Assembly: GCA_963744145.1 (NCBI GenBank) | Contig: CAVUSO010000001.1 | Location: 1,934,831 to 1,998,830, forward strand | Direction of reading: 5' to 3' | From: an uncultured cyanobacterium | GTDB lineage: Bacteria > Cyanobacteriota > Cyanobacteriia > Cyanobacteriales > CAWUOF01 | DNA length: 64,000 nt | In this document: one piece after another, positions 7,580-21,426 of the stretch | How the letters are laid out: each line of letters begins with the position of its first letter | How positions within the stretch are numbered: the first letter of the stretch is position 1 | Made by a program: the position numbers and the translations under genes | Notes under the pieces: generated by a model | The model's database searches: none | The model's input: the letters and a program-made list of their open reading frames with translations, nothing else | Told to the model about the DNA's origin: nothing

Positions 7580-10500
7580 ATGTCTGTCAAGTCTGAAACT
7601 ATGCTGTCATCTATTTTTACAACCTGTGATCCACGCGATGAAGTCCTTGGTGGTAACTTATCCGAGGATATTTTTGCAGCTAAACTGAAGCAAGTAGTAG
7701 ATGGTAACGCACCTTTAGTTTACCAAGATCCACAGATATTTTTTGCTAATACATTTCCTACCAACGGACTCAAAACACTTATTTCAGAAGTATTTGGACG
7801 TTTAACAGGTGTTGATACTGGTTCCCCTGTAATTCGGTTAGAAACAAGCTTTGGTGGTGGAAAAACCCACGATGAAATCGCCCTTTGGCATATTGCTAAA
7901 AATGGACGGTGTATTAGTGGGTTAGATCGATTTATTAATGACATCAATATTATTCCAGATCAGCCGATTCAAGTAGCAGCGATCGCTTGTCAAGACCTAG
8001 ATCCGGTCAATGGTGTTTTCCATGAAGAATCAGGGATAAAAATTCATACCCTTTGGGGAGAAATAGCTTATCAAATTGGTGGAATAGAAGGTTATAGTTT
8101 ACTGAGAGGTTCGGACGAGCAGAAAGTTAGCCCAGGTACAGTTGTATTAGAAAAACTGACTAAAAAAGAACCAACAGTAATTATCCTTGATGAAATCGCT
8201 CAGTATCTGCGTCGCGCTAAAGCAATTCCTATTGGTAATAGTGATCTATCTGAACAAGTAGTTGCATTTCTATTTGCACTGATGGATTTAACTGCTGCTT
8301 GTAATAATATAGTATTTGTCTACACCCTAGCATCAATATCCGATACATTTGGCACTGAAACCGCAGATATTAAAGAAGCATTACAAGCATCAGCTCGACA
8401 AGAAAGGGTACTTAGTCCTAGTACGGATATGGAAATTTACAACATTGTTAAGCAGCGGATTTTTAAGAGGATTGAGGATAAAGCTGCTGATCTTGCTGCT
8501 AAGGATTATTTTAGTGTTTACCAAAACAGTCGGTTAAATCTACCTGATAGCTGTAAAGATGCTAACTATACTCAGGTATTAAAGTCTAGCTATCCCTTTT
8601 CACCGGAACTCTTTACTCTATTAACTAAAAAAATTGCTTCAATTCCTAATTTTCAACGCACCAGAGGAGCTTTACGATTACTTGCAATGGTAGTAAGACA
8701 TCTTTGGTTGGATACATCGGTATGGATACCAATGATTCATCCCCATCATATTCCTATTGGTGTAGATGAAGGTGTCACCAGTGAATTTACTTCTCGGTTA
8801 GAACGTCCCTTAATGCGAAACCCGATTCAAGCAGATATTTTTAATCCTGATGGTAAACTTGCTCATGCTCAAATATATGATGAAGAGTGGTTAGTAGCAG
8901 GAAAACCACCTTTTACAACATGGGTAGCAAGGACTATTTTTCTTCATTCAATTAATCAAGGGACTGTCGCAGGAATTCGACGCGCTGAGTTAAATTTAGC
9001 GTTACTTACTCCCAAGATTGAGATTAGTTTTATTGAACCGGTACTAGAACGTTTGACGACTGTAGCATGGTATTTAGATATTGATCCGGTGACAACGATC
9101 GCTCGTTTTAAAGAAGAGCCATCAATTAATAAAATTATTGCTGAGGAAAAAGAACAGATTCACACACTAGCTGCTAAAGAAACTCTGCGATCGCGACGGG
9201 ATAGTATTTTTGCTAATCAAGTATTTACCTTAGTTACTAATCCGGAAAGTGCGGGAGATGTGGATGATCAACCTGATGATATTGCTCTGTGTATAATTGA
9301 CTTTGATCAAGAAACTGTATCAGCACCAACGGATGGAGTACCTCCTCTAGTAGAACAAATTTTTCATAATACCGGGGAGTCTGGTAAGTTCCGGATATTT
9401 CGGAATCGGCTGCTTTTCTTAGTAGCAAATAAACATGAATTACAACGAGCGATCGAGATTACTAAAGAATATTTGGCAATCCAAAATATTTTGAAGTCAC
9501 CAAACCGTCTCGAAGATTTGTCTGAGTATCAGCGGAAGCAACTGCGAGAAAGGAGTGGAGCTAAAGATTTAGATGTAAGAGTTTCTTTAACTAATACCTA
9601 TCGTCATCTTTTTTATCCAACTAGCGATGCTGTCAAAGCACCAAAGGGATTATTACACTTCACTTTACCCGCTGAAGCTACAGGATATATAAAAGGAAAT
9701 AAGAATCAGCAGGATGTTATTCTCAAAGCTTTAAAAGATTGCGAAAAAATTCGCAAGGAAGATTTAGCTCCTGTTGCTCCTGCTTACATTTTGCAAAAAG
9801 TTTGGTTAGCAGGAATTGATCACTGGACGACCAAAGCTTTGCGCGAAGAATTTGCTAAGAAGCTTTCTCTAAATATGCTCCTTGATGCAGATATTTCCAA
9901 ACTAAGGGAAACCATCCGCACTGGAATAGAGAAAGGTCAATGGGATTTGAAAGTTGGTAATAAAGTCTATATTCTCTCTGACGATGGAAAATTACCAAAT
10001 TTGCCAGATACAATTGAGTTTTCTGATCGGATGGAGTTATATCGACGTGGGATTCTAAAACCTCCTGAACCCCGTGTGATTGAGTTTAATGCTCAAGTTA
10101 TGTCTAGTAGTAATTTAGCTAAACCTGTTCGTCTACGATGGCGATCGCTAGGTGCTTTATCAATTCAAGTTTATCAGGATAATATCCCGCTAACTGGTGA
10201 ATTTTCACCAACAGATAATTATGAAGTTGAAATTACCCAAACCACAACTTTCAAAATTGTCGCTGACTATGGTAATGGTGAAACCGCAGAAAAAGAAACT
10301 CAGGCTACAATTGCTTCCTATTCGACCCCAATCAGTGCAAAGACTAAGTTTCATGATACACCATCAATTTTTGAGGTTAAACCTGAGATCATAGAAGAAA
10401 ATGGGACTGTTAATGCTGCTTTTACCGCATTTAGCGATCGCTGTTCTGATGACAAAGTTAAAGGAGTTAAGAGTTTAGAAATTGCGGTGGATCAGGTGAT

Positions 10501-10819
10501 GGATTATCGTCGAATTACCACGGCTTTTTCCTTAATAGGGAAATTTAATTTTTCGATTGACCAAAAAGCAACTATTCAAATAGACGAGCAGTTTGTCCGA
10601 TTAGATTATCAAGGGAAATTGCGCGGTTTTCAAGGATTTCTTACAGCAATTAATGCGCTGCTAAGTAATGATCAAGTTAGGGCAAATGTGAGTCTCAAGT
10701 TGATATTTACTTTTGATCCGGCGATCGCCCATGATAGTAATGAGTTGATCACACTACAGCAAGCACTTAAGCGCAATCCTGTAGAGCGTCTATCTCTAAC
10801 AGCGAGGGTAAGTTACTAA
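7580..10819 (+). CDS. large Walker-type ATPase, COG1483/DUF499-like (BrxC/PglY-like) defence-associated protein
   Basis: Walker A SFGGGKTH and Walker B VIILDEIAQY near the N-terminus. About 1080 aa. TAATG stop/start overlap with the next ORF. Genomic association with a DUF1156 MTase and SNF2 helicase. Confidence 0.6.
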   Translation: MSVKSETMLSSIFTTCDPRDEVLGGNLSEDIFAAKLKQVVDGNAPLVYQDPQIFFANTFPTNGLKTLISEVFGRLTGVDTGSPVIRLETSFGGGKTHDEIALWHIAKNGRCISGLDRFINDINIIPDQPIQVAAIACQDLDPVNGVFHEESGIKIHTLWGEIAYQIGGIEGYSLLRGSDEQKVSPGTVVLEKLTKKEPTVIILDEIAQYLRRAKAIPIGNSDLSEQVVAFLFALMDLTAACNNIVFVYTLASISDTFGTETADIKEALQASARQERVLSPSTDMEIYNIVKQRIFKRIEDKAADLAAKDYFSVYQNSRLNLPDSCKDANYTQVLKSSYPFSPELFTLLTKKIASIPNFQRTRGALRLLAMVVRHLWLDTSVWIPMIHPHHIPIGVDEGVTSEFTSRLERPLMRNPIQADIFNPDGKLAHAQIYDEEWLVAGKPPFTTWVARTIFLHSINQGTVAGIRRAELNLALLTPKIEISFIEPVLERLTTVAWYLDIDPVTTIARFKEEPSINKIIAEEKEQIHTLAAKETLRSRRDSIFANQVFTLVTNPESAGDVDDQPDDIALCIIDFDQETVSAPTDGVPPLVEQIFHNTGESGKFRIFRNRLLFLVANKHELQRAIEITKEYLAIQNILKSPNRLEDLSEYQRKQLRERSGAKDLDVRVSLTNTYRHLFYPTSDAVKAPKGLLHFTLPAEATGYIKGNKNQQDVILKALKDCEKIRKEDLAPVAPAYILQKVWLAGIDHWTTKALREEFAKKLSLNMLLDADISKLRETIRTGIEKGQWDLKVGNKVYILSDDGKLPNLPDTIEFSDRMELYRRGILKPPEPRVIEFNAQVMSSSNLAKPVRLRWRSLGALSIQVYQDNIPLTGEFSPTDNYEVEITQTTTFKIVADYGNGETAEKETQATIASYSTPISAKTKFHDTPSIFEVKPEIIEENGTVNAAFTAFSDRCSDDKVKGVKSLEIAVDQVMDYRRITTAFSLIGKFNFSIDQKATIQIDEQFVRLDYQGKLRGFQGFLTAINALLSNDQVRANVSLKLIFTFDPAIAHDSNELITLQQALKRNPVERLSLTARVSY

Positions 10820-11247
10820 TGCAAGAGTTTCAATTAAGGGTTGTCCCGACAGATAACAATAATTTTGCTTTAGAATTATATCAATGTGCTTATAAGCAAG
10901 CGGGAGCAAAAAAACGTCCTGCTGCTAAACGGATTGGTAAAATTAAGGGTAATGCTTTGGTACTGACTAGACAGATGATCTATACAGTGCTGAAAACTAA
11001 TAAATATGATCCGAAAACTTTGAAATGCGATCGCCAAACGCCCTATATCCTTGATGAACAGTCAGGAGTAAGTTTAGCTTTGCTATTTCAAACAGTGCAA
11101 CCACTCTCAAAAGAAGACCGAATTGCTAACATTGCTAATGGTGTAATGGCGATGAGTAATGAGGAGGCACATTATTGGTTTGCTAAAGTTTCTAATGGGC
11201 ATAAAAAAAATGCACTCAAAGCGATTCGGGTGCTGTTGGGTGATTAG
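10819..11247 (+). CDS. small basic protein translationally coupled to the DUF499-like ATPase (possible DUF3780-like system component)
   Basis: ATG overlaps the upstream TAA (TAATG). Lys/Arg-rich. No recognisable catalytic motif. Confidence 0.4.
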   Translation: MQEFQLRVVPTDNNNFALELYQCAYKQAGAKKRPAAKRIGKIKGNALVLTRQMIYTVLKTNKYDPKTLKCDRQTPYILDEQSGVSLALLFQTVQPLSKEDRIANIANGVMAMSNEEAHYWFAKVSNGHKKNALKAIRVLLGD

Positions 11248-11278
11248 ATAAAAATTTTATAAACAATCGGAGAAAATC

Positions 11279-11998
11279 ATGATCGCTCCCACCAATCCCC
11301 GCCGCATCACCATTCCACCGCTAGAAAATGGCGATTTACTCTCCTGTCAAGAATTTGAACGGCGCTACACAGCTATGCCCAATCTCAAAAAAGCTGAACT
11401 AATCGAAGGAATTGTTTATATGGCTTCACCTTTACGGTTTGAACCCCATGCTGAACCTCATGCTGATTTAATTGGCTGGTTTTGGACTTACAAAATTAGT
11501 ACCCCTGGTGTGCGTCTAGGTGATAACCCCACTGTCCGTCTAGATGTGGATAATCAACCCCAGCCCGATGCGGTGTTGTTGATTGATACCCAAAAGGGAG
11601 GTCAAAGTTGCTTAAGTGATGATGGCTATATCAAAGGTGCGCCAGAACTTGTGGCTGAAATTGCTGCTAGTACCGCGACGATCGATCTACGGGACAAAAA
11701 GCGAGTTTATTGTCGCCATAGAGTTAAAGAATATTTAGTTTGGCAGGTAAGCGATGACCGCTTCGATTGGTTCTGCTGGCAAAATGGAGAATACATTGCT
11801 CTTACTCCTGATGCAGAAGGAATTATCCGCAGCCAAGTTTTTCCTGGTTTATGGTTAGCAACTTCAGCACTGCTAGCGGGAGATATCCCCCAAGTTATTG
11901 CTACCTTGCAAACTGGATTAGCAAGCACTGCCCATCAACAGTTTGTCCAAAAATTAGCCACCTTTTCTAACCACAATTCTGAAACGGGTAAAAAATGA
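11279..11998 (+). CDS. Uma2-family (DUF820) PD-(D/E)xK endonuclease
   Basis: Motifs ELIEGIVYMASP, PDAVLL, PELVAEIAASTATIDLRDKKRVYCRHRVKEYLVWQV typical of cyanobacterial Uma2 proteins. ATGA overlap with the next gene. Confidence 0.7.
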   Translation: MIAPTNPRRITIPPLENGDLLSCQEFERRYTAMPNLKKAELIEGIVYMASPLRFEPHAEPHADLIGWFWTYKISTPGVRLGDNPTVRLDVDNQPQPDAVLLIDTQKGGQSCLSDDGYIKGAPELVAEIAASTATIDLRDKKRVYCRHRVKEYLVWQVSDDRFDWFCWQNGEYIALTPDAEGIIRSQVFPGLWLATSALLAGDIPQVIATLQTGLASTAHQQFVQKLATFSNHNSETGKK

Positions 11999-12582
11999 TT
12001 ACTGTACCTAATAATCAAAAACTCTCACCTGATGAATATTTTGCATGGGAATCACAGCAAGAAATCCGTTATGAATATATTGATGGTAAGGTATTTGCAA
12101 TGGTAGGAGTAACGATAGCCCATAGCACGATCGCTACTAATTTGATTGCTTTACTGCGACCACATTTACGGGGACGAAATTGTCGAGTATTGGGGTCAGA
12201 TGCGAAAGTGGGTATTTCTCCAAGTGGTGAATTTTTCTATCCAGATTTATTGGTAACTTGTGACGATCGCGATCGCAATTTTGCTAAGGCGGTATTTTAT
12301 CCAAAGCTGATTATTGAGGTATTATCCCCTAGCACAGAAGCATACAATCGCGGTGGTAAGTTTGCGCGTTATCGACAGTTAGCAAGTTTGAACGAATATG
12401 TGTTAGTTAGCTCGGAAAGTATTGGGGTTGAGGTATTTCGGCTTAATGAGCGGAGCAAGTGGGAATTAACACCCTTTGGGGTTGGGGATTTGGTGCAGTT
12501 TGCTAGTATTGAATTTGAATGCGCGATCGCTGCAATTTATGAAGACGTGGATTTTTTAGAATACAGCGGATTCGGTGGCTGA
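11995..12582 (+). CDS. Uma2-family (DUF820) PD-(D/E)xK endonuclease
   Basis: YEYIDGKVFAMVG, YPDLLV, PKLIIEVLSPSTEAYNRGGKFARYRQLASLNEYVLV are Uma2 hallmarks. Confidence 0.75.
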   Translation: MITVPNNQKLSPDEYFAWESQQEIRYEYIDGKVFAMVGVTIAHSTIATNLIALLRPHLRGRNCRVLGSDAKVGISPSGEFFYPDLLVTCDDRDRNFAKAVFYPKLIIEVLSPSTEAYNRGGKFARYRQLASLNEYVLVSSESIGVEVFRLNERSKWELTPFGVGDLVQFASIEFECAIAAIYEDVDFLEYSGFGG

Positions 12583-12892
12583 TGAAGTACAGTAAGATTT
12601 GGCATGAATGGTGGGACAGGCATCTTGCCTGTCAGAGATTGTAAGTGATCTGTGTTGGTTGGGCAGGTTTATGATAGTTATCTGTTTGGAGCAGAATTGA
12701 TTGGTGAACCTGCCCCTACAAATCCTGTTAATCTTGTAATCCTCTCATCCTGATCGATTTTTTGGTAAATCCCTGTAGGGGCGGGTTCACCGATGAACTT
12801 GCCACACACAAATAACCCTTGTGCCGAGCGCAGTCGAGGTATTAATGAACCCGCCCTGCCCCACAGATCACCTTGATGAACTTCATAAACCT
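12583..12892 (+). repeat. MITE-like dispersed repeat (GGTGAACCCGCCCCTAC core family), about 310 bp copy with nested inverted repeats
   Basis: Contains ggtgaacctgcccctacaaatcc ... ctgtaggggcgggttcacc and gatctgtgttggttgggcaggtttatgat ... aacccgccctgccccacagatcacc pairs. Direct copy at about 17895-18160, inverted partial copy at about 14014-14165. Confidence 0.7.
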
Positions 12893-12922
12893 GGAATAGG
12901 CTGTAACCATTGAAGCTGTACA

Positions 12923-13369
12923 TTATTTAGTTTCTGTAAGCAATTGTTCTAGAGTCTCAGGAAAATCACCATTAAAAACCATGCGAGAGAATACATTGTA
13001 ACAGTCATTTTTATCGCCTTCTTTGCGTGGAAATCCTAGCCAAAGAATAATCAAAACCTTACGATCATCTGCTTCAAAAGCTCGAAAAAATAAACGGTAG
13101 CGATCGCTTAGTCCCATACCCTTTAAGCGTCCGTAATGTCTGAGGGAACCTTTGAGGGCAAATTGAGGTGCAAAGGGATCAAGAACTATTTTCTCTTTGA
13201 TCCCTATCATCACTGCGGCTAGTAATTTAACGGTGGGATGTTTGACAAATTCTTCCCTAGGGAGACTGAGTTTTAGTTGGTTAACTTGTGCCTTTAGTTG
13301 TCGTCTTTGTTCCCCAAATAAGTTGTCATGGAAGTAGATTTCCCAGCCATTACGGACGATGACGCTCAT
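12923..13369 (-). CDS. yhaV: type II toxin, YhaV-family ribonuclease-like
   Basis: About 148 aa. 4 bp overlap with an upstream AbrB/SpoVT-type antitoxin. Size, arrangement and sequence character match PrlF/YhaV modules. Confidence 0.5.
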   Translation of the reverse strand: MSVIVRNGWEIYFHDNLFGEQRRQLKAQVNQLKLSLPREEFVKHPTVKLLAAVMIGIKEKIVLDPFAPQFALKGSLRHYGRLKGMGLSDRYRLFFRAFEADDRKVLIILWLGFPRKEGDKNDCYNVFSRMVFNGDFPETLEQLLTETK

Positions 13370-13695
13370 GGGTCAAGCTCAACTCCTGCAAGAAGTTCAT
13401 CATCTTCCTGGGCCATTGCTTCTGTATAGGCTTCTAACTTATCGCTATTTTTGAGAGCATCTTTGGTGATGAAGTCCAGAAATAAACTCAACATTAAATT
13501 ATCGTCTTCTTCTTCCTCATCTGCTTCAGGTGTAACTGGTTCAAGCTTTACCAACAAAGTATTATCAGGTAGCACTTTCACCCATCCAGTAGCATTGGCA
13601 AATTGGGGGTTGTCATGATAAAACGAGGCTGGCAATCTAAAGCCTAAAGAGTTGCCAATTTTGGCTGGTGAGAGGGTGTAGGTTTTGGAACTCAT
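13366..13695 (-). CDS. prlF: type II antitoxin, AbrB/SpoVT (PrlF-like) with acidic C-terminal tail
   Basis: N-terminal swapped-hairpin motif IGNSLGFRLPASF. Acidic C-terminus (EADEEEEDD). Overlaps the toxin start. Confidence 0.55.
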   Translation of the reverse strand: MSSKTYTLSPAKIGNSLGFRLPASFYHDNPQFANATGWVKVLPDNTLLVKLEPVTPEADEEEEDDNLMLSLFLDFITKDALKNSDKLEAYTEAMAQEDDELLAGVELDP

Positions 13696-14013
13696 ATATG
13701 TTAGTACAAATTGTAATAACGATAATGCTATACTAGCACGAAAGTTTAAGGTGGTTACAATCTAGGTATGGACAAGTTCAATCTATGAAAATTCGGGAGT
13801 TATGAGCGATCGCTATTTCTATGCTTGAAAGCTATAGACAAAATAAATATATTAAATTTTAACCATCTCCGTTAGTCAGATGGGGTGGATTCATCCATGT
13901 GATCTGTAAGGTTGGGCGGTGCAATTGTATGACCAAGGGAATAATTTCCAAACAATCAAGATTAAATTAGATGATCAGAATAGATGGTCGATAAATTTAT
14001 GATTACAATTAAC

Positions 14014-14165
14014 CAGGATTTGTAGGGGCGGGTTCACCAATTAATTTTGTGACAAACCGATCACCATTATAAACCCGCCCAACCAACACAGATCAATCAC
14101 AATCGACTTTAACTGATCGGACAGGCAAGATGCCTGTCCCACAATCTTACTGTACTTCATCAATA
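14014..14165 (-). repeat. MITE-like dispersed repeat, partial inverted copy
   Basis: tgtaggggcgggttcacc ... aaacccgcccaaccaacacagatc ... gacaggcaagatgcctgtcccacaatcttactgtacttcatca is the reverse complement of the 12583-12650/12700 segments. Confidence 0.65.
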
Positions 14166-14499
14166 TAGAAATCCGCTGTAAATCAATCAATTTCCTCTCT
14201 AATCTCATATTCACCTTGGGGATATCGCACCAATATCTCATCAGCTAAACATCCTGCTGTCTGTTCAAAAAAACTAGAAGGCCAGCCTAATTCTTCAGAA
14301 GTTTGAGGTGGAGTTTGATTGCTCAAATCGTTCATGATATTTTCTGGTAGATGATGAGCAAAATCAGGATAAATTATTATTTTACTAAATTTAACCTACT
14401 TTATAGGTCGGCACAGATTCCCATGATGCTATAGTATAGCAATTACCCAGGAAAGTCAAGGGGTAATTTCTTTTTACTTCACTTACTCGAAAATTAATT

Positions 14500-17436
14500 A
14501 TGACTAACCCTAGTTCCCAGCGTCCTCAAGTTTTTATTGAAAAAATTATGCCCGTGAAGTTACTCAACGAGCAGGTATATTACGAACATGGGGGTAATCC
14601 GTTTAAGGGTTTACATCGGTGGTATTCGCGCAAACCTTTGTCCTTTAGTCGAGCCAGTGTGTTAGCTTCCTTGTTACCTGGGGATGTGACGATCGAGGAG
14701 TTTAAATATCTGTTAGGTTTGTACCCAGAACAAGAAGGTTTAAAACCAGATCCTGATATTAAGCTGTATAAAACACCTCCTGGTAAATTGAGAATTAAAA
14801 AGGTGCAGGATTATTGTGAAAAATTGTGGGGAACTCGAACTCCTACAGTTTTAGATGCGTTTGCAGGTGGTGGGAGTATTCCCTTTGAAGCAGCAAGATA
14901 TGGGTTTAATGTATTAGCATCGGATTTGAATCCTGTTGCAGTTGTGACAATGAAAGCTGCGATGGAATATCCCCTAAAGTTTGGACCGGATTTGCAGCAG
15001 GATATTGATCAATGGGTGAAGTGGGTAGGTGATGAAGCCGAGAAACGGTTAGCTGAGTTTTTCCCTTCTTTACCTGGGGAAACTGTACAGAATTATCTGT
15101 GGGCGCATACAGTGGTTTGTCCGAATTGTGAATCGGTTGTACCTTTGAGTCCGAATTGGTGGTTATATAAACGTCCAGAAAAGCAGAATTTACATAAATG
15201 GTGTGCAGTAAAGCCAATTCCTAACATTGAGAATAAGCGGGTTGATTTTGAATTGGTGAAGGGGAAGAAGGGAAAAGGAACAACTATTCAAACTGATGAT
15301 GGGGAATATGATCCTGATACTACAACTACTATTGGTCGAGGTGTTGGTAGATGTCCTAATTGCGACAATGTGATCGAAGATGATGTAATTAAATCTCAAG
15401 CGCAATCAGGTATTTTAGGACATCAACTTTATGCAGTTGCTTATAAAAAAGGTAAAGGAAGTTTAGAATTTAGAATTCCCGAAGAATTAGATTTAGAAGG
15501 AATTGATAAATCTCAATGTTATTTAAAATCACAATTTTTGGAAATTCAAGCTAATGGTATTTTGCCTGATGTTGCAGTTACTCATGGACAAGAAACTGAA
15601 AGATTATTCTCAATTGGGATTGATAGCTGGTACAAATTCTTTAATCCACGCCAACTTTTAACACTTGTTACATATTTAGAAATTATCAATGAAGCAAAAG
15701 CACTAATTCAGACTAAATGTGAAGAAGAAAAAGAAACAGCGATCGCTAAATTAAAATCTAATCCAGAAGTAGAGGATATCCAGAGGGCGATCGCAAATAT
15801 TGAATCCTACTATCAGAATAAAATTGAGGCGATCGCCACTTATTTAGCTTTGGTATTTGATAGATGTGTTGACAGAAATTCTAGGCTTGGACATTGGCAT
15901 TCAGCTAGAGGCTATGCAGAGATAGCAATGGCTCAACATTCTCTAAATCTAAATTGGAATTATCCTGAAACTAGCGGTGCAGGTGAACTCTGGCAATCAT
16001 GCGCTGATGCCTTTATATCAGATTATCAAAATCTTTGTGCCTTATTCGGAACTAAACCAGATTCAACAGGTATTTTAGGAATAGAACAACACAATCTCAA
16101 ATCCATTCAAATTGATTCAGCATCTGCTGACAGTCTAACGCATATTCTTGATAACTCAGTAGATGCAATTATCACCGATCCACCTTATTACGCAACCATC
16201 CAATATGCGGAACTATCAGACTTTTTTTATGTCTGGCAAAAACGCACCCTCGGCGATATCTTCCCCGATCTCTTCTGGATGGAACTTACAGACAAAGATC
16301 GCGAAACTGTAGCCAATCCTTCACGCTTTCGCAACATGGGAGCATCCCCCGAAGAACTCGCCAACCAAGACTATGAAGCAAAAATGGCAATGGCATTTGC
16401 TGAATATCATCGTGTCTTACGAGAAGACGGAGTAATGACCGTGCAATTCAATCACAAAGAATCAGGAGCATGGGATACCCTAGCATATTCCTTAATTAAT
16501 GCAGGTTTCGAGATCACCGCATCATGGTCAGTCAGCACCGAAAACCCCCAAAACCTCCACCAAGCCCAAAAGAACTCCGTCGCTAGTACAGTATTACTCG
16601 TGTGCCGCAAACGCGACCCCAACGCTGAACAAGCCTGGTGGGATGACCTCCGCCCCGAAGTCTCCAACCTAGTCGAACAACGCGCCCCAGAATTTGAAGC
16701 CAATGATATTCAAGGGATTGACCTTTATCTCAGCGCCTTTGGTCCGGCCCTCAACGTCTTCTCCCGCTCCTGGCCAGTTCTTGATAGTACAGGTAACGAA
16801 GTCCGCCCCGAAGTTGCATTTGCTGAAGCTCGCAAAGCTGTTGCTAACTACCGCTTCCGCAAACTCGCTCAAACCGACACAATGGGTTTTGACCCCGTTA
16901 CCCAATGGTATTTTCTCGCTTGGGATGCTTTCCGCGCCCGCGAATTTCCCTTTGATGACGCTCGACAACTTGCCCTAGCAGTAGGTGGTTTCAATGTCGC
17001 AGACCTAGGAAAAAGCTACAAAATCCTCGACATCAAAAGCGGTACTTGTAAATTCCTCAGCCCCGAACAACGCTACAAAAAACACGCATTCTCGATCGCA
17101 GACAATGAATTTTCTGCCCGTTATCTCATTGACGGACTCCACGCGATCATTGCTATCTATCAACAAGAACAAACCATCGAACCAATCCGCCGTTTTATGA
17201 AAGCCACAGAACTAATCAGCAATGATAAGTTTATGCGAGCTTGGGAAATAGCATTAAAAGTTATCCCTCGCATCGGAGACGATCGCAAACGCATCCCCGA
17301 AGAAAAAGCCTTATTAAATTTATGGTTAGCAATGGATGAAATCAAAGCCAAAGTAGTTTATGTGCAGCAGGAATTGCTTTTAGGACCTGGACAATTGACT
17401 TTAGATTTAAAAAGTGTTATTGATGAAGATAAATAA
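14500..17436 (+). CDS. DUF1156 / COG1743 Zn-ribbon N6-adenine DNA methyltransferase (defence-associated)
   Basis: N-terminal GGNPFKGLHRWYSRKP (DUF1156 signature). Zn-ribbon CPNCES...CPNCDN. Motif IV DPPY (IITDPPYYATIQY). Confidence 0.8.
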   Translation: MTNPSSQRPQVFIEKIMPVKLLNEQVYYEHGGNPFKGLHRWYSRKPLSFSRASVLASLLPGDVTIEEFKYLLGLYPEQEGLKPDPDIKLYKTPPGKLRIKKVQDYCEKLWGTRTPTVLDAFAGGGSIPFEAARYGFNVLASDLNPVAVVTMKAAMEYPLKFGPDLQQDIDQWVKWVGDEAEKRLAEFFPSLPGETVQNYLWAHTVVCPNCESVVPLSPNWWLYKRPEKQNLHKWCAVKPIPNIENKRVDFELVKGKKGKGTTIQTDDGEYDPDTTTTIGRGVGRCPNCDNVIEDDVIKSQAQSGILGHQLYAVAYKKGKGSLEFRIPEELDLEGIDKSQCYLKSQFLEIQANGILPDVAVTHGQETERLFSIGIDSWYKFFNPRQLLTLVTYLEIINEAKALIQTKCEEEKETAIAKLKSNPEVEDIQRAIANIESYYQNKIEAIATYLALVFDRCVDRNSRLGHWHSARGYAEIAMAQHSLNLNWNYPETSGAGELWQSCADAFISDYQNLCALFGTKPDSTGILGIEQHNLKSIQIDSASADSLTHILDNSVDAIITDPPYYATIQYAELSDFFYVWQKRTLGDIFPDLFWMELTDKDRETVANPSRFRNMGASPEELANQDYEAKMAMAFAEYHRVLREDGVMTVQFNHKESGAWDTLAYSLINAGFEITASWSVSTENPQNLHQAQKNSVASTVLLVCRKRDPNAEQAWWDDLRPEVSNLVEQRAPEFEANDIQGIDLYLSAFGPALNVFSRSWPVLDSTGNEVRPEVAFAEARKAVANYRFRKLAQTDTMGFDPVTQWYFLAWDAFRAREFPFDDARQLALAVGGFNVADLGKSYKILDIKSGTCKFLSPEQRYKKHAFSIADNEFSARYLIDGLHAIIAIYQQEQTIEPIRRFMKATELISNDKFMRAWEIALKVIPRIGDDRKRIPEEKALLNLWLAMDEIKAKVVYVQQELLLGPGQLTLDLKSVIDEDK

Positions 17437-17450
17437 GTGAAGCTAAAATT

Positions 17451-17774
17451 ATGAAAATTAAAGGTATTAAACGCGGTATCATGATTGAATTATTTGAAGA
17501 AATCGATATTCCTGATGGGATGGAAGTGATGGTTGAAATTCAAAATAGTCATCCTCTTGCAGGACTAAGTAAAGAAGAAATTCAAAAACGGATCAATAAA
17601 GTAGCAGGAGTCTGGAAAGACGATCCAGAAATTGAGCAAATCTTTGCAGAAATAAATCAAGAACCTTTGGAAATTGAGCGATCGGCTACAACCATCTCGC
17701 AACGAATGAAGCAATTTGCCCAAGATGGTATTGATCTAGATGCTAAAGAAGGCTTAACACAATTGAGAGAATAA
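17451..17774 (+). CDS. hypothetical small protein downstream of the MTase
   Basis: ORF 14 nt after the MTase stop. A partial duplicate of its 5' end (MKIKGIK...) follows at about 17769-17885. Confidence 0.35.
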   Translation: MKIKGIKRGIMIELFEEIDIPDGMEVMVEIQNSHPLAGLSKEEIQKRINKVAGVWKDDPEIEQIFAEINQEPLEIERSATTISQRMKQFAQDGIDLDAKEGLTQLRE

Positions 17775-17894
17775 AATCATGAAAATCAAAGGTATTAAAC
17801 AGGGTGTAACAGCGGTAGATCGTGGCAACCCAAACGCGATCGCGCAATTTAGTCATAAAACTGAATTACCACAAAAATACAGCGGATGACCCGT

Positions 17895-18160
17895 TGATGA
17901 AGTACAGTAAGATTTGGCGCTAATAGCGATAAGTTAAAGTCAATTGTGATTGATCTGTGTTGGTTGGGCGGGTTTATGATGTTGATCTATTTGTGTCAGA
18001 ATTAACTGGTGAACCCGCCCCTACAAATCCTGGTTTATTGTCCTCATAAATTCATCGACAATACATTTTTATGAGCTAGTAGGGGCGGGTTCACCGCTGA
18101 ATTTGCCACACACAAATAACTTTAATAAACCCGCCCAACCTCACAGATAACCTTGATGAA
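17895..18160 (+). repeat. MITE-like dispersed repeat (same family as 12583-12892)
   Basis: tgatgaagtacagtaagatttgg ... gatctgtgttggttgggcgggtttatgat ... ggtgaacccgcccctacaaatcctgg ... gtaggggcgggttcaccg ... aacccgcccaacctcacagataacc. Confidence 0.7.
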
Positions 18161-18300
18161 AACTACCCCATCTTACATCACAGACAACACTGCTATACTT
18201 CATAAATAGGTCATACGCTAGATCTCATCCAGATTGAGAGTCTTTAAAATGTCACAAGGCACATCAAAGATAACGATGCTGGACTTTTAAGGTATTTTTT

Positions 18301-21300
18301 ATGAAAAAATTGCGCGATCGCTATTGGAAAATCGGTTATGGTAGTGATGAAGATAACCTAATCGTTGATTTTTATATCCCGGCTCTTGAATGTGCCCTCC
18401 AATACGATCGCAAAGCCGGATTTTTTAATAGTACCATACTCAGTCGCGTCGCCAGAGGATTAGGAGCATTATTAGCAAATCAAGGACGAATGCGCTTAAT
18501 TATGGGTTGTCAGTTTTCTCCTGAAGACTTACAAGCGGTTCAACAAGGTTACGCATTACGAGAAACCCTAACTCATCGACTAGATCAAGAACTTACTCCA
18601 CCTGTCAACTTTGCCCAGCTCAAACATTTTGAAATCCTCAGTTGGTTGATTCAAAATGAATATCTCGATATTCGCATTGCAATTCCCCTCAAACCTAATG
18701 GTAATCCTGAATCCTCAGAATTGGTATTAGATCCAAAGCATTTATTTCACGAAAAAGTAGGCATTATTTCCGATGTAAATGGCGATCGCCTAGCTTTTAA
18801 TGGTTCCAATAATGAATCAATCGGTGGATGGCAATCTAACCTAGAATCATTTCATGTATTTTTTTCCTGGGATGGTGGTAGCGATTTACAAAGAGTACAA
18901 CATGAATGCGATCGCTTTGAGCGTCTTTGGAATGATGAACTTCCCAATGTGCGAGTATTTGAAATTCCTACAGCAGTAAAACAAAAACTATTAAATTATA
19001 CCCCAAACCAAAAACCCGACTGGAATCCGCAAGCAGAATTTAATACCAGCCCCATCACTTATTTAGAAACAATAAATGAGTTCCAAATCTCTGAAGAAGA
19101 ACTACAAAAAGAACGAGAACAATTTACCCAACTTGCTAATATTCATCACCATCCTGGTTGTCTAGACTTCTCAGTTAAATCAATTCCCATCAAACCTTGG
19201 GCACATCAACTAAAAATCTTGCGACGGATAGCAGCAGAGTTTCCCCGTAATGCTTTAATTGCTGATGAAGTAGGTTTAGGTAAAACCATTGAAACCGGTT
19301 TAATATTGCGTTACTTGCTGCTCTCGAAAAAAGCAACGCGAGTGTTAATTTTAGTACCAGCTAGTGTACAACCTCAGTGGCAAGAAGAAATGCGGGAAAA
19401 ATTTAACTTGCACTTCTGGTCCTATGGCAAAAATGAACTGGTTGATCCGTACCAACAATCAGTCGCGATCGCCGGAAATCTTTGGAATCAGAAAAACCTG
19501 ATCCTTGCATCTAGTCATCTAGTCAGACGCAAAGAACGAATGCAAGAATTACTAAACTCTGAAGCATGGGATTTAATCGTTTTAGATGAAGCACATCACG
19601 CAAGAAGAAAAAGCCCTCAAAATCACAAAGATACTCCCAACCGTCTACTTGAACTAATGGAGCGTCTGAGAACAAATACTCAAGCTTTGCTACTCCTTTC
19701 TGCAACACCAATGCAAATTGATGCGATCGAAATGTTTGATTTAATCAAGTTACTTGGTTTAAAAGGTCATTGGGAATTTCCTGATAATTTTTGTCATTAT
19801 TTCGCCACTCTATCTGAATCACCTAATAAAGATATGCTCAACTTTTGGCAAACCATGTCTACAGATTATTTTGATCATGGTGGTCAGCCTTGTAGTAAAA
19901 TTCAGAAAGGATTAGAAACTAGCGATCGCCTGTTATTTTATCAACTTGAGGATATTTGGCGCAATGGTCAGAAAATAACTAATCCTCAGAAATATCTAGC
20001 CGATGATAATTTTATCAGTGCATCTCAAAGATTTCTGGCAACTAATACACCGATTAAAGACTTAATGTTTCGCCACACCCGCGATACATTGCGAGAATAT
20101 TTTAAACGTGGTTTATTAGCTCAAGATGTACCGATAAGAGAGGTATTTGATCATGCAATTGCTCTCGAAGCAAATCGCGAAGTTCATCTCTATATTGCTG
20201 TTAGTGATTACGTGCGACATTTTTACCGTCTCGCGCAAAAGGAAAACCGCAAAGCCCTGGGTTTTCTAATGACCCTATATCGTAAACGTCTCACCAGTTC
20301 TTTCTATGCGATCGAGAAATCATTACAACGTAGATTAGATTATTTACTTACTCAACAGGGTAGCTTATTAGGAGATGATGACTACAGCGATCTAGAAGAT
20401 GCCGATGATGCTATTATTGAAGGCTTAGAATCCTTCATGGAACCCATAGATCCAAAGGAAATTGAATATTTACAAGATTTATTGCATCAATTTGACAATA
20501 CAGGGGAAGATACCAAGCGATCAAAATTTATCAACAAATTAAGACAAGAATTCTTAGAGCGTGATAGTGCGATCATCTTTACCCAATATACCGATACAAT
20601 GGACTATTTGCGCGATATCTTAACTCAATTATATGGTTCATCAGTTGCCTGTTATTCAGGAAGGGGTGGAGAAATCAATTATGATGGTAAATGGCAAATT
20701 ATCCCCAAGGAAGAAATCAAAAGACGGTTTCGTGATGGGGAAATTAAAATCTTGCTATGTACCGAGTCAGCTAGTGAAGGGCTAAATTTACAAACTTGTG
20801 GAGTTTTATTTAATTATGATATGCCTTGGAATCCGATGCGAGTGGAGCAGCGGATCGGACGGATTGATCGGATTGGTCAAAAATTCTCTCAAGTCAGAAT
20901 CCATAATTTTTACTATGACGGAACAGTAGAAGCAAAAGTCTATCGTAAATTGCGCGATCGCATCCAAGCATTTACCACAGTAGTTGGTAATCTGCAACCC
21001 ATCCTCGCTCTTGTACCTACTTTTATTGAAAAAGCAGTAATGAGTGCCGATCCCTTAGAAGAAAATGTCTTGCTGTCGGAATTTGAGCAAACTTTGGATA
21101 TATCACCTTTACAACCTGCACTTAATGATGCTGTCGCAATGGATGTGGAAGCCGATCTTACTGAACTTCGTCAACCAATCCCATCATCTCCCTTTAATGC
21201 TGAAATAATCGAACAGGTTTTGACGCGATCGCGACTATTACAGAAAGCCGGAATTAGGTTTGAGAAGATCGCAGAAAAGCTGTGGAAATTACAATTAGAA

Positions 21301-21426
21301 GATCAATCTTATCAAGTTACCTTTTATGCCGATACTTTTGACGAACATCCATCTTTGCGATTAATGACTTTTGGTGATCCTATTTTTGAGCTCCTGTTGC
21401 ATAAACGTTTAGCGTCAGCAACCTGA
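18301..21426 (+). CDS. PLD-family nuclease domain fused to SNF2/DEAD-like helicase (defence-associated)
   Basis: HxKxxxxD motif (HEKVGIISD) at the N-terminus. Helicase motifs I (DEVGLGKTIE), II (VLDEAHHARR), III (SATPMQ) and C-terminal helicase block (LLCTESASEGLNLQ, QRIGRIDRIGQ). Confidence 0.8.
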   Translation: MKKLRDRYWKIGYGSDEDNLIVDFYIPALECALQYDRKAGFFNSTILSRVARGLGALLANQGRMRLIMGCQFSPEDLQAVQQGYALRETLTHRLDQELTPPVNFAQLKHFEILSWLIQNEYLDIRIAIPLKPNGNPESSELVLDPKHLFHEKVGIISDVNGDRLAFNGSNNESIGGWQSNLESFHVFFSWDGGSDLQRVQHECDRFERLWNDELPNVRVFEIPTAVKQKLLNYTPNQKPDWNPQAEFNTSPITYLETINEFQISEEELQKEREQFTQLANIHHHPGCLDFSVKSIPIKPWAHQLKILRRIAAEFPRNALIADEVGLGKTIETGLILRYLLLSKKATRVLILVPASVQPQWQEEMREKFNLHFWSYGKNELVDPYQQSVAIAGNLWNQKNLILASSHLVRRKERMQELLNSEAWDLIVLDEAHHARRKSPQNHKDTPNRLLELMERLRTNTQALLLLSATPMQIDAIEMFDLIKLLGLKGHWEFPDNFCHYFATLSESPNKDMLNFWQTMSTDYFDHGGQPCSKIQKGLETSDRLLFYQLEDIWRNGQKITNPQKYLADDNFISASQRFLATNTPIKDLMFRHTRDTLREYFKRGLLAQDVPIREVFDHAIALEANREVHLYIAVSDYVRHFYRLAQKENRKALGFLMTLYRKRLTSSFYAIEKSLQRRLDYLLTQQGSLLGDDDYSDLEDADDAIIEGLESFMEPIDPKEIEYLQDLLHQFDNTGEDTKRSKFINKLRQEFLERDSAIIFTQYTDTMDYLRDILTQLYGSSVACYSGRGGEINYDGKWQIIPKEEIKRRFRDGEIKILLCTESASEGLNLQTCGVLFNYDMPWNPMRVEQRIGRIDRIGQKFSQVRIHNFYYDGTVEAKVYRKLRDRIQAFTTVVGNLQPILALVPTFIEKAVMSADPLEENVLLSEFEQTLDISPLQPALNDAVAMDVEADLTELRQPIPSSPFNAEIIEQVLTRSRLLQKAGIRFEKIAEKLWKLQLEDQSYQVTFYADTFDEHPSLRLMTFGDPIFELLLHKRLASAT

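What the first reader, a model, noticed from the sequence alone, without database searches (positions are those of the whole stretch)
11279..12582. Tandem, translationally coupled Uma2 (DUF820) PD-(D/E)xK nuclease genes embedded inside the defence island
Two paralogous Uma2-family genes are joined by an ATGA overlap. They sit exactly between the ATPase/small-ORF pair and the methyltransferase. Uma2 proteins are abundant, mostly uncharacterised restriction-endonuclease-fold proteins in cyanobacteria. Their placement here, ending precisely where a MITE copy begins at 12583, suggests either hitch-hiking or recruitment as the nuclease effector of the methylation-based system.
Basis: partly seen in the sequence, partly recalled or inferred. 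Interest (0 to 1): 0.5.

Follow-up and report, generated by a model that had tools for sequence, protein, structure and literature searches.

The report
Two unrelated Uma2 nuclease genes as operon cargo
Two intact but only distantly related Uma2-family nuclease genes sit as separately acquired passengers in the variable spacer of a cyanobacterial Hma (BREX-related) anti-phage operon, which is a known pattern and gives no sign that they are the system's missing nuclease.

Summary
ORFs 11279-11998 and 11995-12582 are both Uma2 (PF05685) proteins with an Uma2 fold and conserved motif residues. They share an ATGA overlap and lie 31 nt downstream of the DUF499-ATPase/DUF7680 pair of an Hma/type-2 BREX-related operon. 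Three details are wrong. The two genes are not detectably similar to each other. A YhaV/PrlF toxin-antitoxin module and two repeat copies separate them from the methylase. The MITE starts at about 12560-12563, inside the second ORF. Comparison with about 90 related loci shows the DUF7680-to-methylase spacer is a hypervariable cargo site of 12 bp to 6.6 kb. Uma2-2 has orthologues at the same spot in some Pseudanabaena-type loci, but equally close copies sit among housekeeping genes. Uma2-1 is a lineage-specific, promoter-less RBS+ORF cassette found in no other Hma locus. Both C-terminal tails, and the ATGA overlap itself, are junction by-products. The helicase keeps its own HKD nuclease motif. 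Hitch-hiking is therefore the best reading. Recruitment as the effector is not supported for this pair. A different Uma2 subfamily does recur in Hma and BREX loci and deserves follow-up. Tandem Uma2 cassettes and Hma insertion hotspots are already published.

The parts
7580..10819 (+). HmaC / DUF499 AAA+ ATPase, a core gene of the Hma (type-2 BREX-related) system
   Evidence: Pfam DUF499. PADLOC HmaC at 6e-103. NCBIfam DUF499_antiphage. 79% nt identity to Pseudanabaena-type loci.
10819..11247 (+). DUF7680 small protein, a conserved partner of HmaC. It marks the upstream edge of the variable cargo spacer.
   Evidence: Pfam PF24728 at 3e-46. It is the gene next after HmaC (abutting or overlapping it in about half of the loci) in all 80 related loci where HmaC was detected. 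dN/dS 0.03-0.05.
11254..11989 (+). Lineage-specific inserted segment (RBS plus the Uma2-1 ORF without its own stop). L009 and L090 have about 25 nt in its place.
   Evidence: blastn of the window against L009/L090 finds no counterpart for 11254-11989.
11279..11998 (+). Uma2-1, a 239-aa Uma2/DUF820 PD-(D/E)xK-like protein. Its last 6 codons (SETGKK) run beyond the family's normal stop into the leader of Uma2-2 and end in the TGA of ATGA.
   Evidence: Pfam Uma2 at 97.9 bits. Relatives are 231-234 aa. 3' alignment. Fold match to 6OKH and 9Y1L. Conserved residues retained. dN/dS about 0.11.
11995..12582 (+). Uma2-2, a 195-aa Uma2 protein of a different subfamily. The ancestral ORF is 11995-12557. 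TAA>TTA at 12555-12557 extends it by 8 codons into the repeat.
   Evidence: Pfam Uma2 at 126.3 bits. Orthologues are 187-189 aa. 81% nt identity to the Uma2 that follows DUF7680 in L009/L090. 3' alignment. Model pLDDT 83.6 with a disordered tail at 190-195. Fold match.
12562..12921 (+). MITE-like repeat copy 1. It folds as a long hairpin and exactly fills the space between the ancestral Uma2-2 stop and the YhaV stop.
   Evidence: blastn self-comparison. RNA fold -136 kcal/mol, z = -6.3. The core motif occurs 11 times in the window against 0.01 expected.
12923..13369 (-). YhaV-family toxin
   Evidence: Pfam Toxin_YhaV at 1e-43. 80% nt identity to the YhaV gene that follows DUF7680 in L007, and to the one in L101.
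13366..13695 (-). PrlF-like antitoxin
   Evidence: Weak Pfam and NCBIfam PrlF matches. Co-conserved with YhaV in L007 and L101.
13870..14180 (-). MITE-like repeat copy 2, inverted relative to copy 1, so the two copies bracket the YhaV/PrlF module
14500..17436 (+). HmaB / DUF1156 N6-adenine DNA methyltransferase (core gene)
   Evidence: Pfam DUF1156, MethyltransfD12 and N6_N4_Mtase. PADLOC HmaB at 3e-78. NCBIfam DUF1156_antiphage.
17451..17774 (+). Conserved 107-aa ORF with no family assignment. Homologues lie between HmaB and HmaA in many related loci.
   Evidence: No Pfam, PADLOC or NCBIfam hit. phmmer hits in about 20 related loci.
17876..18160 (+). MITE-like repeat copy 3, lying between the small ORF and the helicase gene
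18301..21426 (+). HmaA, a PLD/HKD-nuclease-SNF2 helicase fusion. It is the system's own predicted nuclease effector.
   Evidence: Pfam SNF2-rel_dom, Helicase_C and weak PLDc_2. PADLOC PbeA, PLD_Helicase and HmaA. NCBIfam phospholipD_antiphage. Motif HEKVGIISD...GSNN at residue 150.

Best explanation
The two genes are independent, intact Uma2-family (restriction-endonuclease-fold) 'solo nuclease' cassettes. They ride as cargo in the hypervariable spacer between the DUF499-ATPase/DUF7680 genes and the DUF1156 methylase of an Hma (type-2 BREX-related) defence operon.

Inferred history:
1. An Uma2-2-type gene was already sitting directly after DUF7680 in the Pseudanabaena-like ancestor of this operon, and a YhaV/PrlF module was in the same spacer.
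2. A promoter-less Uma2-1 cassette (ribosome-binding site plus ORF, about 720 nt) of Microcoleus/Oscillatoriales affinity later landed between DUF7680 and Uma2-2. It lost its own stop codon, so it now reads 6 extra codons and terminates in the TGA of the ATGATT start that all Uma2-2-type genes share. That is what produces the ATGA overlap.
3. MITE copies then invaded the remaining intergenic spaces. One lies just past Uma2-2's stop, and a TAA>TTA change extended that ORF by 8 codons into the repeat.

Both genes are probably transcribed by read-through from hmaC-DUF7680, and Uma2-2 may be translated by coupling. Both are kept by purifying selection, so each probably works as a metal-dependent nuclease in its own right. 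The literature's guess is a selfish or 'solo toxin'-like element.

Neither gene is a required part of the Hma mechanism, which has its own HKD nuclease on the helicase.

Shown here: gene identities, fold, motif conservation, insertion boundaries, presence/absence in relatives and selection. Inferred: the order of events, co-transcription, and nuclease activity and its target.
For: Identity and integrity:
- Pfam Uma2 at 98 and 126 bits.
- Fold matches only to Uma2 structures.
- Subfamily-invariant residues are retained, including E/D/E/S/K positions D97, E127 and K140/141 in Uma2-1 and D84, E108 and K122 in Uma2-2.
- dN/dS is 0.08-0.13, similar to the core genes at 0.03-0.19.

Independence of the two genes:
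- No mutual BLASTP similarity.
- Different nearest taxa.

Cargo site:
- The spacer is 12 bp to 6.6 kb in 63 loci.
- The Pfam census of 148 spacer ORFs is dominated by toxin-antitoxin, defence and mobile families, with only 3 Uma2.
- Published work reports that 66.5% of Hma systems carry insertions (PMC11232893).

History:
- Window 7596-11253 and 11990-12564 align to L009 at 79% and 81%. The 11254-11989 segment is replaced there by 25 nt.
- Window 12929-13738 aligns to the L007 toxin-antitoxin pair at 80%.
- Uma2-2-type genes occur after DUF7680 in L009 and L090-L094, on the other side of the YhaV module in L101, and in housekeeping contexts in L001, L100 and L102-L104.
- Uma2-1-type genes occur only outside Hma loci.

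Own nuclease:
- HKD-like motif in HmaA and PLD-helicase profile matches.

Literature:
- DUF820 genes and toxin-antitoxin modules are embedded in the hox operon (PMC4963859).
Against: - Uma2 genes are about 11 times denser inside or adjacent to Hma loci (16 in 310 kb) than in the outer flanks (2 in 424 kb; p = 6e-5).
- 15 of those 16 are co-oriented with the operon.
- Uma2-2 orthologues sit at the identical position in several relatives, and their synonymous divergence from the window is no larger than that of the core genes (dS 0.82 versus 1.24). So Uma2-2 has been a long-term resident, which could reflect a selected contribution to defence.
- No Uma2 protein has been characterised biochemically, so 'selfish cargo' is a default reading, not a demonstrated function.
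- The mechanism by which ORF-sized cassettes relocate is unknown.
Confidence: 0.6

Rival explanations
1. Accessory or backup effector. One or both Uma2 nucleases have been recruited as auxiliary PD-(D/E)xK effectors of the Hma/BREX-related system. They would be co-expressed from the operon and would cut unmethylated invader DNA, or host nucleic acid as an abortive back-up when phage inhibits the HKD-helicase.
For: - Uma2 is about 11-fold enriched in Hma loci.
- Embedded Uma2 genes are co-oriented with the operon.
- Uma2-2 orthologues occupy the same site in L009, L090-L094 and L101.
- A separate 217-244-aa Uma2 subfamily is conserved in 13 of 80 Hma loci, and also lies between BrxC and PglX of a BREX-6 plasmid locus.
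- PADLOC lists Uma2-like models as defence candidate PDC-S03.
- Rakesh & Krishnan 2026 report standalone PD-(D/E)xK nucleases as the commonest auxiliary effectors in BREX and BR loci (PMC12839542).
Against: - Uma2-1 is absent from all other Hma loci examined.
- Uma2-2-type genes are absent from most of the closest loci (L007, L010-L014) and present at non-defence sites at equal identity.
- The window's two genes do not belong to the Hma-linked subfamily.
- When independent clades are counted rather than loci, the enrichment is not significant (6 versus 2, p = 0.065).
- The same spacer collects toxin-antitoxin modules and transposases equally.
- HmaA keeps its own nuclease motif.
Confidence: 0.15
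2. Self-mobilising nuclease cassettes. Uma2 genes behave like free-standing homing-endonuclease genes. The nuclease would cut an empty intergenic target and the ORF-sized cassette would be copied in by repair. This would explain the family's expansion in cyanobacteria and its precise insertion between operon genes.
For: - Homology between copies in six different contexts is confined to the ORF plus or minus about 10 nt.
- The Uma2-1 insert is just RBS plus ORF.
- Otherwise syntenic loci show presence/absence polymorphism.
- In L101 the Uma2-2 cassette lies on the opposite side of the same YhaV module.
- Literature notes the high copy number of the family (PMC9403480, PMC1274311, PMC2701414).
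Against: - At dS of about 1, any non-coding flanks would be unalignable anyway, so tight homology boundaries are expected even without cassette mobility.
- No conserved target sequence or empty-site/filled-site pair at high identity was found.
- No Uma2 protein has shown site-specific cleavage.
- Steczkiewicz et al. 2012 state that cyanobacterial Uma2 contexts are mostly conserved (PMC3424549).
Confidence: 0.15
3. Two-component module. The translationally coupled pair works together, either as a heteromeric nuclease or as a toxin/immunity-like pair in which one Uma2 restrains the other.
For: - ATGA overlap, and a degenerate Shine-Dalgarno sequence before Uma2-2 (CGGG in place of the GAGG seen in relatives).
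- 114 conserved COG4636-COG4636 pairs are reported by Makarova et al. 2009.
- The solved Uma2 structures have two chains per entry.
Against: - This particular combination of subfamilies was found nowhere else. Relatives are solitary, or paired with a close paralogue of their own type.
- Both retain the full predicted catalytic set.
- The overlap is explained by the lost stop codon at the insertion junction.
Confidence: 0.1

Closest known systems
Uma2 / DUF820 / COG4636 'solo toxin' cassettes of cyanobacteria (Makarova, Wolf & Koonin 2009, PMC2701414; Kinch et al. 2005 fold prediction)
   Same: Both genes are bona fide family members by Pfam score, fold and motif. They occur as an adjacent same-strand pair without an antitoxin, in a cyanobacterial genome. 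This is the pattern described as 'cassettes of paralogous genes'.
   Different: The two members come from different subfamilies and were acquired separately, not duplicated in place. They are embedded inside a defence operon. Their ends have been remodelled by the insertion junction and by a MITE.
DUF820 genes and toxin-antitoxin modules interspersed in the cyanobacterial hox hydrogenase operon (Kopfmann et al. 2016, PMC4963859)
   Same: An Uma2/DUF820 gene together with a type II toxin-antitoxin module lies between the genes of a long operon, presumably transcribed with it.
   Different: The host operon here is an anti-phage system, not a metabolic operon.
Insertion hotspot within hmaABC (Microb Biotechnol 2024, PMC11232893)
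   Same: Foreign genes are inserted between the Hma core genes. The paper reports 66.5% of systems with insertions. Here, 56 of 63 cyanobacterial loci have more than 300 bp between DUF7680 and HmaB.
   Different: The published cargo in Halomonas was other defence systems (Septu, PARIS, Ppl). Here the cargo is Uma2 genes, a YhaV/PrlF module and MITEs.
Type-2 DUF499-centred BREX-related system with auxiliary PD-(D/E)xK nucleases (Rakesh & Krishnan 2026, PMC12839542)
   Same: The core is a DUF499 ATPase, a DUF1156 N6-methylase and an HKD-helicase plus a small standalone gene. Standalone restriction-endonuclease-fold genes lie inside the core locus.
   Different: The small gene here is DUF7680, not DUF3780. 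Uma2 is not mentioned in that paper or in its held supplements. The evidence here argues that this pair is cargo and not a conserved auxiliary effector.

Membership tests
Uma2 (PF05685 / DUF820 / COG4636) | Sequence match to the family profile above the curated threshold | tested here: met
   97.9 bits (Uma2-1) and 126.3 bits (Uma2-2) against a gathering score of 27, each covering almost the whole 172-position model.
Uma2 (PF05685 / DUF820 / COG4636) | Restriction-endonuclease-like fold matching solved family members (1WDJ, 3OT2, 6OKH, 9Y1L) | tested here: met
   The AlphaFold models have pLDDT 83.6 and 74.2. Foldseek top hits are exclusively those four entries, with E from 2.5e-10 to 1.7e-4 and target TM-scores of 0.57-0.82.
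Uma2 (PF05685 / DUF820 / COG4636) | Conserved acidic and lysine residues of the predicted PD-(D/E)xK-type site (E in the first strand, D after 'P', E-x-x-S, downstream K) | tested here: met
   Uma2-1 has E40/E43, D97, E127, S131 and K140/K141. Uma2-2 has E27, D84, E108, S111 and K122. These residues align with 6OKH and 9Y1L and are invariant in the subfamily alignments.
Uma2 (PF05685 / DUF820 / COG4636) | Nuclease activity | not testable with these tools
   No biochemical characterisation of any family member was found in the literature searches.
Recent tandem duplicate (paralogous pair in the narrow sense) | Detectable pairwise similarity and a shared nearest-relative set | tested here: not met
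   BLASTP best E = 2.1. The two genes fall in disjoint identity clusters and have different nearest taxa.
Core or conserved accessory component of the Hma / type-2 BREX-related system | Present at a conserved position in most related systems | tested here: not met
   Uma2-1 type: 0 of about 90 related loci. Uma2-2 type: found only in the loci L009(=L015)/L090-L094 and L101, and absent in L007 and L010-L014.
Core or conserved accessory component of the Hma / type-2 BREX-related system | Supplies a function the core lacks (a nuclease) | tested here: not met
   HmaA retains an N-terminal HxK...D...GSNN motif and matches PLD-helicase and PbeA profiles. HmaA is also full length in loci that carry Uma2.
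Core or conserved accessory component of the Hma / type-2 BREX-related system | Same strand as the core genes, with operon-like spacing | tested here: met
   31-nt gap after DUF7680 and no terminator-like site in that gap.
Type II toxin-antitoxin pair | A toxin gene adjacent to a small, unrelated antitoxin (usually DNA-binding) | tested here: not met
   Both partners are full-length Uma2 proteins with intact motifs, and neither has an antitoxin-type domain. The true toxin-antitoxin module in the spacer is YhaV/PrlF.
MITE (the flanking repeat) | Short, non-coding, multi-copy element with terminal inverted repeats or a long hairpin | tested here: met
   Three copies of about 300-360 nt lie in the operon, with further core copies in the window. 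The element folds as a hairpin with z = -6.3. Target-site duplications and the parent transposase were not determined.
Free-standing homing endonuclease gene | Presence/absence polymorphism of an ORF-sized insert between conserved genes | tested here: met
   The window differs from L009 and L007 at the DUF7680 junction.
Free-standing homing endonuclease gene | The encoded enzyme cleaves the empty target site | not testable with these tools
   Requires biochemistry. No conserved target sequence was recognised.

The most novel reading that the evidence does not exclude
Uma2 nucleases may be a recurrent, functionally integrated accessory layer of cyanobacterial BREX-family systems, and not mere passengers. 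Three observations fit this reading:
- A dedicated 217-244-aa Uma2 subfamily sits at fixed positions (right after the methylase, or right after DUF7680) in 13 of 80 species-level Hma loci.
- The same subfamily lies between BrxC and PglX of a BREX-6 plasmid locus.
- The window's Uma2-2, and perhaps Uma2-1, would be independent recruitments to the same ATPase-to-methylase junction.

A related possibility is that Uma2 cassettes actively home into such junctions.
Probability: 0.15. Interest if true: 0.55.

Novelty: new member of a known kind. Interest (0 to 1): 0.3.

Why it matters
As it stands this is another example of two documented patterns: adjacent Uma2 genes in cyanobacteria, and cargo insertion inside Hma/BREX-related operons. 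It does not reveal a new effector.

Its value is as a well-resolved case history. It shows how promoter-less nuclease cassettes, toxin-antitoxin modules and MITEs layer into one operon spacer. It also shows how an 'ATGA translational coupling' and novel C-terminal tails can arise purely from insertion junctions.

The wider comparison produced one lead worth testing. A distinct Uma2 subfamily tracks Hma and BREX loci. Uma2 is one of the most abundant uncharacterised protein families in cyanobacteria, so this subfamily could give it a first testable functional context.

Tried and rejected
1. Recent tandem duplication was rejected, because the two proteins show no pairwise similarity.
2. The idea that the Uma2 genes replace a missing nuclease was rejected, because the HKD motif and full-length HmaA are present.
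3. I tested whether the MITE carries or mobilises the Uma2 pair. The other two MITE copies have no Uma2 sequence attached. The shared segment starts only about 5 nt after the ancestral stop codon. Relatives with an Uma2-2-type gene have no MITE.
4. My first subfamily-specific Uma2 HMMs missed divergent Uma2 genes in related loci. This was corrected with a Pfam census and a broader iterated HMM.
It is known only as a 7.63-Mb contig.
6. The MANTIS preprint on a BREX-related DUF499 system could not be read.
7. The Rfam scan of 10500-18400 found nothing.
8. The promoter and terminator scans were at or below chance level, so they are uninformative beyond showing no terminator in the 31-nt gap.
9. 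The metagenome scan for Uma2-1 relatives gave only 5 loci, none with Hma genes.
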